From Saccostrea echinata (lineage: Eukaryota): a DNA stretch of 64,000 nt. The notes below the pieces were generated by a model. That model was not told where the DNA came from. It was given only the letters and a program-made list of their open reading frames with translations, and searched no databases. How positions within the stretch are numbered: position 1 is the stretch's first letter; the number at the start of each line of letters is the position of its first letter. Position numbers and translations under genes: made by a program. Shown here in pieces: positions 5,013 through 6,521 of the stretch. The stretch is from contig NW_026889779.1 of assembly GCF_033153115.1 (NCBI RefSeq), positions 9,734,001-9,798,000 on the forward strand. The letters run 5' to 3'.

Positions 5013-6521
5013 ATGATAAGAATAATCTTTTCTCTTGGTGTACTGTATTTGAATATGGCATTATATAAACTTTTTCAATTACATGTACTTTTAATGATGC
5101 ATTCGATAAATTCTATACCAGCAAACGCAGGTGATGGACTTTCACATGAGTTTAACTCTTCAACAGTCACAACTCTGATTTCTCATATAGCTAATTCAAC
5201 AGGTTACGATAGTGGTAAATTAAATAGAAATATTTCCTCTGCATTGGATTCCAGATTACCACCCTACTGGGAGGAATTTTGTGAAAAACAAGAAATAAAG
5301 AGCAATGAAACATCGCATCACTACAAATGTTACATAGATGCATCTTCCTCTGGCAAATGGAATTTTTCAGAACTACGACAGTATATTTTGCAAAGAGATG
5401 ATAAATACAGTTTCTATGTGCATTGTCAAAATGGTGCTAGAATTTCACTTCCTGCGCAAGCAAAAGCAATTAATATTATTAAGCTCCACGTGCACGACTG
5501 CATTGCAGATGACTATTATGCAGACTTTAAAAAACTTGAATTAGATCTTCTTCCAGACGAACTCGAAGAATATGTTCTAATAAATGTGAAGCATTCAATA
5601 GGACTTAAAGCAATGTTTGAGAGTCTTCAAACAAAGACAGCGAATCTTTCGAGAAGTTTTTTGTGTGGAAACGAGGAAACTTTAAGAATTAAAATATATC
5701 GGAATAAAACCTTTTCATTCATAAATGATCTGAGCAATCCAGAACTGGCTTTTGAAATGTTCCCCAAAATAGCCACTGGAAACATAATGGAAAGGAGATT
5801 ATCACCACATAAGTGTATTAATAAAAAACTAGAGGAGCTTGAAGATTCCATCACATCAACAGTAGGTAGATACTATGCAACCACTTTAACCGAACAAAAT
5901 ATTTTCCCAGAACTATCTGTTCTCAACATATCCCATTCTAATATTTATTACATACCTGAAAATTTTAAAACTTGGTGGATCTACTTCCCAAAGTTGAAGT
6001 ACCTGGACATGTCTAACAACTTAATTCAGGATATTATCTTTCCACGAAATGACGAGGAAGTGGTTGGTAATAGCATTTCAAATTTAACGCTTGATCTAAC
6101 TTTTAACAATATAAGTGTAGTGTCTGTTCTTGATTTTGAAAGAATCATACAAAACAAGAATTTATTTGTGAAATTGGCGAACAATCCTTTCAACTGTACA
6201 TGTACAGATAAAATGAAGGAGGTGTTGAGATACATCCAAGAGAGAGATTGGAATTCATCAAAGTACCAGAGATACTCGTACATTAGAGATCTGGAGTGCC
6301 ATTATCCCGTAGCTGTCAGAGGCCGACGACTACGAGATATACATCTTGGTGATATAAACTGTGGATTCGATATGATGCCCGTAATTGTTGCTTTAAGTGT
6401 CCTCTCGTTTGTCCTTCTTATTTTCATTTTTATTATTTTTATCAATTGGCGAAGAATTCGAACTTTGTTGTTATCAAGACTCAATGTTGACTTCCCTTGT
6501 GCTATCTTCAACAATCATTAA
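5013..6521 (+). CDS. TIR-less Toll-like receptor paralog (signal peptide, Cys-rich N-terminus, LRRs, LRRCT, TM, short tail)
   Basis: 502-aa ORF colinear with the two downstream TLRs (LPPYWEEFC, GKWNFSELRQ, LKYLDMSNNLI, NPFNCTC, TM segment). It stops shortly after the TM where the paralogs begin the TIR. A splice-acceptor-like CTTCCAG lies just before the ATG; the true start may be the second Met. Confidence 0.85.
   Translation: MIRIIFSLGVLYLNMALYKLFQLHVLLMMHSINSIPANAGDGLSHEFNSSTVTTLISHIANSTGYDSGKLNRNISSALDSRLPPYWEEFCEKQEIKSNETSHHYKCYIDASSSGKWNFSELRQYILQRDDKYSFYVHCQNGARISLPAQAKAINIIKLHVHDCIADDYYADFKKLELDLLPDELEEYVLINVKHSIGLKAMFESLQTKTANLSRSFLCGNEETLRIKIYRNKTFSFINDLSNPELAFEMFPKIATGNIMERRLSPHKCINKKLEELEDSITSTVGRYYATTLTEQNIFPELSVLNISHSNIYYIPENFKTWWIYFPKLKYLDMSNNLIQDIIFPRNDEEVVGNSISNLTLDLTFNNISVVSVLDFERIIQNKNLFVKLANNPFNCTCTDKMKEVLRYIQERDWNSSKYQRYSYIRDLECHYPVAVRGRRLRDIHLGDINCGFDMMPVIVALSVLSFVLLIFIFIIFINWRRIRTLLLSRLNVDFPCAIFNNH

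What the first reader, a model, noticed from the sequence alone, without database searches (positions are those of the whole stretch)
5013..6521. Intact TIR-less TLR paralog: candidate decoy or co-receptor in a TLR cluster
Seen: it is colinear with both full TLRs up to RLNVDFPC (paralogs RFNVVLPC), stops 6 residues later, and has no recognisable TIR relic downstream. The frame is open for 502 codons despite substantial divergence from the paralogs. Known: RP105/CD180 is a TIR-less TLR-like modulator in vertebrates. Inference: selection keeps a membrane-anchored, non-signalling receptor, giving a paired activating/decoy arrangement.
Basis: partly seen in the sequence, partly recalled or inferred. 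Interest (0 to 1): 0.7.

Follow-up and report, generated by a model that had tools for sequence, protein, structure and literature searches.

The report
Oyster Toll-like receptor without signalling tail
An oyster keeps an intact copy of a Toll-like immune receptor gene that has lost its internal signalling domain; a related oyster carries the same tail-less copy and the loss recurs across this receptor family, so the protein likely sits on the cell surface as a silent receptor that would dampen the signalling copies next to it.

Summary
Window 5013-6521 is one open frame encoding a predicted signal peptide, an LRR ectodomain (AlphaFold pLDDT 94), a transmembrane helix and a 25-residue tail, with no TIR relic before the two full paralogs at 30115 and 34814. 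It is not a fresh accident. A Saccostrea cucullata ortholog is also TIR-less and shares the decayed juxtamembrane linker. dN/dS on its branch is about 0.2, all ten ectodomain cysteines are kept, and a public contig runs unspliced through the stop. The architecture is common in this short-ectodomain (X/Ls-like) family: 17 of 98 representatives are TM-anchored without TIR and 28 lack both. Separate cases occur in another cluster of this genome and in Crassostrea virginica. The 'paired receptor' part is not supported: the ectodomain is only 58-69% identical to its neighbours and shows no gene conversion with them (0 of 58 and 0 of 53 informative sites). Best reading: a selected, non-signalling surface receptor that probably damps the neighbours (0.42); co-receptor, independent binder or slow decay remain open. 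It works like RP105/CD180 but is no relative. The scan noted a similar case in abalone before.

The parts
5013..6521 (+). Single open frame of the TIR-less TLR-like gene ('A'); 502 codons from 5013, 488 from the likelier start at 5055
5055..5129 (+). Predicted signal peptide (hydrophobic core mean KD 1.9; cleavage site judged by eye, no predictor run)
   Evidence: position matches the paralogs' N-termini
5262..6374 (+). Ectodomain: irregular LRR solenoid with N-cap cysteines and one LRRCT; all 10 family cysteines kept
   Evidence: AlphaFold pLDDT 94.1, pTM 0.91; LRR fold matches Z up to 16.6
6183..6362 (+). LRRCT (NPFNCTC ... C ... C), the single cysteine cluster next to the membrane
6375..6440 (+). 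Predicted transmembrane helix (19-residue mean KD 3.3), followed by basic residues
6441..6521 (+). Cytosolic stub of about 25 residues: decayed TM-TIR linker (6 of 14 family-invariant residues kept); homology ends at 6500, then 6 unrelated codons and TAA
6522..6730 (+). Single-copy 3' stretch, likely 3' UTR; no TIR relic, no match to the paralogs' 3' flanks; ATTAAA at 6661
   Evidence: contig X1-3 covers it to 6697
6735..7480 (.). High-copy interspersed repeats that begin about 215 bases after the stop
30115..32070 (+). Full paralog B (651 aa): same ectodomain type, TM, TIR
34814..36859 (+). Full paralog C (681 aa): same ectodomain type, TM, TIR

Best explanation
Gene A is an intact, conserved paralog of the neighbouring short-ectodomain Toll-like receptors that lacks the TIR domain and likely acts as a silent cell-surface receptor that would damp signalling by the full receptors. 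Shown: architecture, absence of TIR, a TIR-less ortholog, constraint on the ectodomain and relaxed constraint on the linker. Inferred: the TIR was lost before this species and S. cucullata split; the protein reaches the surface as a type I membrane protein; it binds ligand or a full paralog, so that the dimers it enters carry at most one TIR and recruit MyD88 poorly, or it removes ligand without signalling.
For: Ortholog P0007 (S. cucullata XP_062606173.1) is sister to A (SH-aLRT 100), lies on a 249,967-base contig like three full TLRs, ends 11 residues after the same RLNVD and shares linker changes at family-invariant sites. In quartet tests 58 of 58 (A/B) and 53 of 53 (A/C) informative sites follow orthology. 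NG86 dN/dS is 0.21 (A-B), 0.18 (A-C), 0.16 (B-C); the A branch has 0.22, bootstrap 0.12-0.38. A and P0007 differ at 8 of 74 invariant against 35 of 110 variable columns, Fisher p 0.0012. A keeps 89 of 98 invariant ectodomain residues but 6 of 14 linker residues. In neutral simulations giving 11-15% protein change the frame survived in 3-7% of 500 runs with substitutions alone and in under 1% with indels. Contigs of 4 runs (at most 3 samples, 2 studies; RNA is a guess) cover the ORF; the 9 listed pieces in 5069-6697 have no gaps, and one runs 5641-6697 colinearly through the stop. Recurrence: own-genome gene L018 beside full TLRs on contig C56; C. virginica LOC111127284, with 11 full-length and 1 partial member and the same tail in all 7 printed; its sister P0058 with a degenerate TIR in a 268-member cluster. 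Damping by truncated parts is known one step downstream in oysters (CgMyD88s; PMC7381170, abstract) and for RP105 (PMC3699456, start of abstract).
Against: Nothing here shows the sign of the effect, a ligand or a partner. There is no ectodomain homogenisation with B or C, which a same-ligand decoy would favour. A's end branch (0.13) is 2.7 times those of B and C (0.048 each), which fits relaxed constraint. The dN/dS branch includes time before the TIR loss, and dS is near saturation (1.1-1.4). B and C have annotated proteins in the collection but A has none. Contig depths are low (3-8) and the runs are only guessed to be RNA. No TIR-less sister of A appeared for Ostrea or Magallana (only the top ~8,000 candidates were scored).
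Confidence: 0.42

Rival explanations
1. A is a positive co-receptor: it would bind a ligand that B and C bind poorly and hand it on, or partner a TIR-bearing chain, much as CD14 or plant receptor-like proteins do (recalled) and as CD180 does in B cells.
For: All evidence of constraint applies equally. The ectodomain is distinct from both neighbours, and its middle segment changes fastest between orthologs (69% against 82-86%, p 0.003), as in full paralog C, which suggests its own ligand. CD180 needs signalling partners and also stimulates cells (PMC10353253, passages).
Against: No partner is known. The TM and linker residues that are invariant in signalling paralogs have drifted. Repeated loss is easier to explain for a role that needs no new contacts (inference).
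Confidence: 0.22
2. A works apart from the neighbours, as a membrane-tethered LRR binder (microbe capture, opsonic uptake or adhesion); it sits in the cluster only because it arose there by tandem duplication.
For: No conversion with B or C. The family readily drops signalling: 13 of 25 own-genome genes show neither TM nor TIR in their ORF, as do 28 of 98 representatives. The best fold matches include TIR-less LRR surface proteins such as 5T4, Nogo receptor 2 and FLRT2 (Z 14.8-16.6).
Against: Those fold matches are tied with TLR4 and TLR7 and reflect the common LRR solenoid. The TM-anchored TIR-less genes found in this genome (A, L018) both lie beside full TLRs.
Confidence: 0.18
3. A is a slowly decaying truncated duplicate whose frame is still open by chance or under weak constraint.
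For: Longer end branch than B and C; the S. cucullata model lacks its first 190 residues; no annotated protein for A; oyster TLR sets hold pseudogenes (9 of 83 with frameshifts in C. gigas; PMC4346834, passages).
Against: Low survival of the frame in neutral simulations and branch dN/dS 0.22; ortholog differences avoid conserved columns; 79% identity to the ortholog, close to the 73-95% by segment of the full paralogs' ortholog pairs; gap-free contigs from other samples.
Confidence: 0.15
4. A is spliced to a TIR exon elsewhere and is a normal TLR.
For: Four GT dinucleotides lie in the last 100 coding bases.
Against: None resembles a strong donor (judged by eye). No TIR in 6501-30000 or in the 20 kb upstream of the window. 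A genome-wide DNA search with B's TIR gives 4 matches: B, C and two at full TLR loci on C56. Contig X1-3 crosses the stop without a joint. Paralogs are single-ORF genes.
Confidence: 0.03

Closest known systems
Molluscan X-group (formerly Ls-type) single-cysteine-cluster TLRs (PMC10279657 section 13; PMC4346834 passages)
   Same: Short ectodomain, few canonical LRRs, one LRRCT, tandem clusters; B and C fit this description.
   Different: A lacks the TIR on which these groups are defined and counted. AlphaFold shows that the 'non-LRR' part is still a continuous LRR solenoid. Placement in group X by TIR phylogeny was not tested.
RP105/CD180 (vertebrate TLR4 paralog)
   Same: LRR ectodomain, TM and a very short tail without TIR (about 11 residues; PMC10353253 passages); arose from a signalling TLR.
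   Different: CD180 has 661 residues and works with MD-1; A has 488, no known accessory chain, and nests inside an oyster clade of full TLRs, so the origin is separate.
Paired immune receptors (for example CEACAM1/CEACAM3; PMC5112662 abstract)
   Same: Neighbouring paralogs with related ectodomains and different tails.
   Different: Paired receptors have highly similar ligand-binding domains kept alike by gene conversion, and opposing tail motifs. A has neither.
CgMyD88s, a truncated MyD88 of the Pacific oyster (PMC7381170 abstract)
   Same: A truncated paralog that damps the oyster TLR pathway.
   Different: It is a cytosolic TIR-only adaptor with tested function; A is the complementary piece (ectodomain without TIR) and is untested.

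Membership tests
Toll-like receptor (strict) | LRR ectodomain with LRRCT | tested here: met
Toll-like receptor (strict) | Single transmembrane helix | tested here: met
   hydropathy; alignment, (prediction only)
Toll-like receptor (strict) | Cytosolic TIR domain | tested here: not met
Molluscan X/Ls-group TLR lineage | Short ectodomain with few canonical LRRs and a single LRRCT | tested here: met
   against the description
Molluscan X/Ls-group TLR lineage | TIR clusters with the named X-group sequences | not tested
   named reference sequences were not fetched; the paper's supplements were not read
RP105/CD180 | No TIR, short tail | tested here: met
RP105/CD180 | Orthology to the vertebrate TLR4/CD180 lineage | tested here: not met
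   A nests among full oyster TLRs; CD180 matches only the last LRRs and LRRCT of the family profile, below insect Toll and TLR3
RP105/CD180 | Complex with an MD-1-like chain and modulation of a TLR | not testable with these tools
   needs biochemistry
Paired immune receptors | Ectodomains kept highly similar by gene conversion | tested here: not met
   58-69% identity by ectodomain segment; 0 of 58 and 0 of 53 informative sites show within-species sharing (residues 191-481 only); no near-identical DNA tract in 20-codon windows over the whole gene (maximum 0.82)
Paired immune receptors | Opposing signalling motif in the tail | tested here: not met
   the tail has no tyrosine and differs from the ortholog's after RLNVD
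Paired immune receptors | Shared ligand | not testable with these tools
   no ligand known

The most novel reading that the evidence does not exclude
Short-ectodomain molluscan TLRs form a three-format receptor system: the same LRR module is redeployed again and again as a signalling receptor, a membrane-anchored silent receptor (TIR deleted, truncated or degenerate) and a secreted protein. Nearly half of the family (45 of 98 representatives) lacks TIR and is invisible to TIR-based TLR surveys, and clusters evolve their own brake independently.
Probability: 0.3. Interest if true: 0.65.

Novelty: new variant of a known kind. Interest (0 to 1): 0.42.

Why it matters
Bivalves have the largest TLR repertoires known (PMC10279657), and the surveys read here classify them by the TIR domain, so TIR-less relatives drop out. 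If these genes are brakes or co-receptors, filter feeders have a receptor-level control layer that arose several times by convergence with vertebrate RP105. The three-gene cluster gives a small, direct test in the reporter system already used for oyster TLRs. The concept itself is known, and function is untested, so the interest is moderate.

Tried and rejected
An apparent 'QQS...IIESKR' TIR-like stretch in another frame just after the junction was rejected: its local alignment score was matched by 138 and 38 of 500 shuffles, and the profiles found nothing. The idea that the 3' stretch is a paralog-type UTR joined by a clean TIR deletion found no support (109-160 of 200 shuffles scored as well). 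A transposon at the junction was not seen: 6490-6730 is single copy. A single origin of all four signal-dead sequences (A, P0007, C. virginica, P0058) is disfavoured but only marginally (AU p 0.043; group chosen after seeing a tree). A complex prediction of the A and B ectodomains gave no verdict (score 0.00, folded without alignments). A search among proteins of 30-267 residues for the missing front half of the S. cucullata ortholog found none of 681 candidates. No run on record as RNA was listed. Synonymous versus non-synonymous polymorphism in the ORF was not obtained, so whether other individuals keep the same stop codon is open. Eight literature searches listed no paper whose title or abstract start describes TM-anchored TIR-less TLR paralogs in molluscs; subscription papers and supplements were not seen. 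PMC4346834 counts 83 TLR genes of which 80 have a TIR, so TIR-less copies have been catalogued before.

Full report
Observation. The window is contig C30:9734001-9798000 of G000, a 923-Mb genome whose nearest named proteins are from oysters. Three paralogous single-ORF genes lie on the + strand: A (5013-6521), B (30115-32070) and C (34814-36859). B and C carry Pfam TIR hits above cut-off; A has only weak LRR hits. A follows B and C to the Cys codon ending at 6500, adds six unrelated residues and stops. No TIR remnant was found in the window by tblastn, by a DNA profile or by a protein profile, nor in the 20 kb upstream. A genome-wide DNA search with B's TIR returned 4 matches, all at full TLR loci. 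The 240 bases around and after the junction are single copy, and repeats start near 6735. The alignment favours the Met at 5055 as start; residue numbers below count from it.

Anatomy. AlphaFold, given 124 sequences, models residues 60-440 with mean pLDDT 94.1 and pTM 0.91. The model is an irregular LRR solenoid. VIA-align ranks 5T4 (Z 16.6, rmsd 3.8, 251 aligned), TLR4 (15.1), Nogo receptor 2 (15.0) and others close together; Foldseek lists insect Toll5A, NGL3, 5T4 and TLR8. By sequence, the family profile matches insect Toll best, over the last LRRs and the LRRCT only. A has a hydrophobic helix at about 441-462, basic residues after it, and a stub of about 25 residues without tyrosine. B and C fit the description of the X (formerly Ls) group, with short ectodomains and few canonical LRRs (PMC10279657, section 13 and passages; PMC4346834, passages); I did not test this by phylogeny with named members.

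Is the truncation real and old? A contig from run X1 covers 5641-6697 with 13 differences, no gaps and no joint, so the junction is not peculiar to this assembly and that contig is unspliced across the stop. Four runs (at most 3 samples, 2 studies) were laid. All have zero depth in 4000-4669, the 9 listed pieces within 5069-6697 have no gaps, and one X1 piece also covers 4712-4939. RNA status is a guess and depths are 3-8, so this is weak support for expression. The protein search returned 18 relatives; the closest (79% over 58% of A) is S. cucullata XP_062606173.1, 304 aa, without TIR, on a contig of the same length as three full TLRs of that species. It is sister to A with SH-aLRT 100. It stops 11 residues after the same RLNVD and shares linker changes at sites otherwise invariant. 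A keeps 89 of 98 invariant ectodomain residues but only 6 of 14 in the linker (14 full TLRs). I infer that the TIR was lost or disabled before the two species split. A caveat is that this model begins at about residue 191, so that copy may be broken or badly modelled; a search for the missing part found nothing.

Selection. Over 391 codons, NG86 dN/dS is 0.21 (A-B), 0.18 (A-C) and 0.16 (B-C). The three-taxon branch value for A is 0.22 (bootstrap 0.12-0.38, 299 of 300 replicates usable), against 0.19 and 0.14 for B and C. dS is near saturation, values for single segments are unstable (0.13 to 1.22 for A), and the branch includes time before the loss. A test confined to the time after the split agrees: A and its ortholog differ at 8 of 74 columns invariant in 12 full TLRs, 14 of 93 intermediate and 35 of 110 variable columns (p 0.0012). 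Neutral simulations at 0.05-0.07 substitutions per site, which give 11-15% protein change, left the frame intact in 7.2% and 2.6% of 500 runs without indels, and in 0.8% and 0.4% at 0.05 indels per substitution. Against this, A's end branch is 0.13 versus 0.048 for B and C, and A has no annotated protein in the collection while B and C do.

Recurrence. A search of G000 scored 72 candidates and gave 26 matches in 25 genes. By ORF and hydropathy, 10 have TM and a TIR-type tail, 2 have TM only (A, and L018 beside full TLRs on C56) and 13 have neither; at least 3 of those 13 look broken or partial, and splicing was not checked. C. virginica LOC111127284 is a 467-aa TM-only member; its cluster has 12 members, and the 7 whose ends I printed share the tail. 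Its sister P0058, an unnamed cluster of 268 members, has a degenerate TIR below the Pfam cut-off, with the conserved Box 1 and BB-loop-region residues replaced (the motif names are recalled). A tree that forces these two together with A and its ortholog is marginally rejected (AU p 0.043). Of the 150 representatives listed plus none added, 98 cover the whole ectodomain and are at most 950 aa; 52 have TM and TIR, 17 TM only, 28 neither and 1 TIR with a weak TM. The other 52 were dropped, some own-genome genes are among the 98, and unspliced or cut ORFs may inflate the TIR-less classes.

Paired or not? Paired receptors keep highly similar binding domains by gene conversion (PMC5112662, abstract). 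A is 58-69% identical to B and to C by ectodomain segment, no more than B to C (63-77%). In quartets with the S. cucullata orthologs, 58 of 58 (A/B) and 53 of 53 (A/C) informative sites follow orthology and none shows within-species sharing (residues 191-481). B and C, in contrast, share an 85-95% identical DNA tract from the end of the LRRCT through the TIR, from which A is excluded. An earlier scan note on abalone (e1-9957061) reported ectodomain sharing with a neighbour; I did not check that locus, and the feature is absent here.

Mechanism. Shown: no TIR, constrained ectodomain, relaxed linker, repeated origin. Inferred: surface display, ligand or paralog binding, and the sign of the effect. 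TLR signalling needs two TIRs brought together to recruit MyD88 (established knowledge), so a TIR-less paralog entering dimers, or taking up ligand, would lower output; I give this 0.42. A co-receptor role gets 0.22, a role independent of the neighbours 0.18, slow decay 0.15 and splicing to a TIR 0.03. In total the gene is about 80% likely to be a functional non-signalling receptor.

Novelty. TIR-less TLR relatives are known (CD180; PMC10353253, passages), a truncated adaptor damps oyster TLR signalling (PMC7381170, abstract), and 3 of 83 C. gigas TLR genes were counted without TIR (PMC4346834, passages). PMC10279657 has no occurrence of 'TIR-less', 'truncated' or 'decoy' in its main text, and PMC12521104 none of 'decoy' or 'soluble' (passages). 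PMC4892480 and PMC9334734 (passages) added nothing on this point. Eight searches listed nothing on such paralogs in molluscs, within the open library and without supplements. Verdict: real, probably functional, a new variant of a known kind; interest 0.42.

Noticed in passing
window 31361-31960 and 36063-36662: Paralogs B and C share an 85-95% identical DNA tract from the end of the LRRCT through TM and TIR, against 72-82% just upstream: likely gene conversion of the signalling half. Ostrea edulis paralogs show the same pattern at protein level.
   Followed up: partly
G000:C54:51.45-51.68 Mb (L019-L027, L029-L031): A cluster of about ten ORFs of the same ectodomain family, most 360-410 aa with no TM or TIR (candidate secreted forms), mixed with two full TLRs.
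   Followed up: partly
L018 (G000:C56:3292566-3296201, - strand): A second TM-anchored TIR-less member (525 aa, tail of about 45 residues) 2 kb from a full TLR; no TIR relic in the 40 kb scanned other than that TLR's own.
   Followed up: partly
P0058 (unnamed cluster, 268 members): Family member with a degenerate TIR (profile score 112 bits against about 300-320 for its relatives), sister to the TIR-less C. virginica gene: a possible intermediate on the way to TIR loss, or a SIGIRR-like inhibitor (recalled analogy).
   Followed up: partly
window 13529-19306: Three related segments 90-95% identical around a reverse-transcriptase-like ORF on the - strand at 15251-16399 (weak RVT_1 hit), probably a non-LTR retroelement fragment.
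   Followed up: no
window 55534-59088: Mutator-like transposase pieces followed by a DEDDh exonuclease / PML C-terminal-like ORF, in several frames.
   Followed up: no
window 50005-50850: Exon with a signal-like start and a laminin G domain, likely the first coding exon of a neurexin-type gene (the name is recalled).
   Followed up: no
L037:4972-10000 and the start of L038 (about 10-15 kb upstream of the window): LTR retrotransposon with a gag-like ORF and a 1486-codon protease-RT-RNase H-integrase ORF.
   Followed up: no
L033 (C6) and L036 (C76): Two nearly identical TM-less family ORFs on different contigs: recent duplicate or retained haplotig.
   Followed up: no
window 53033-54068: Tandem array with a unit of about 140-146 bases (self-matches).
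   Followed up: no
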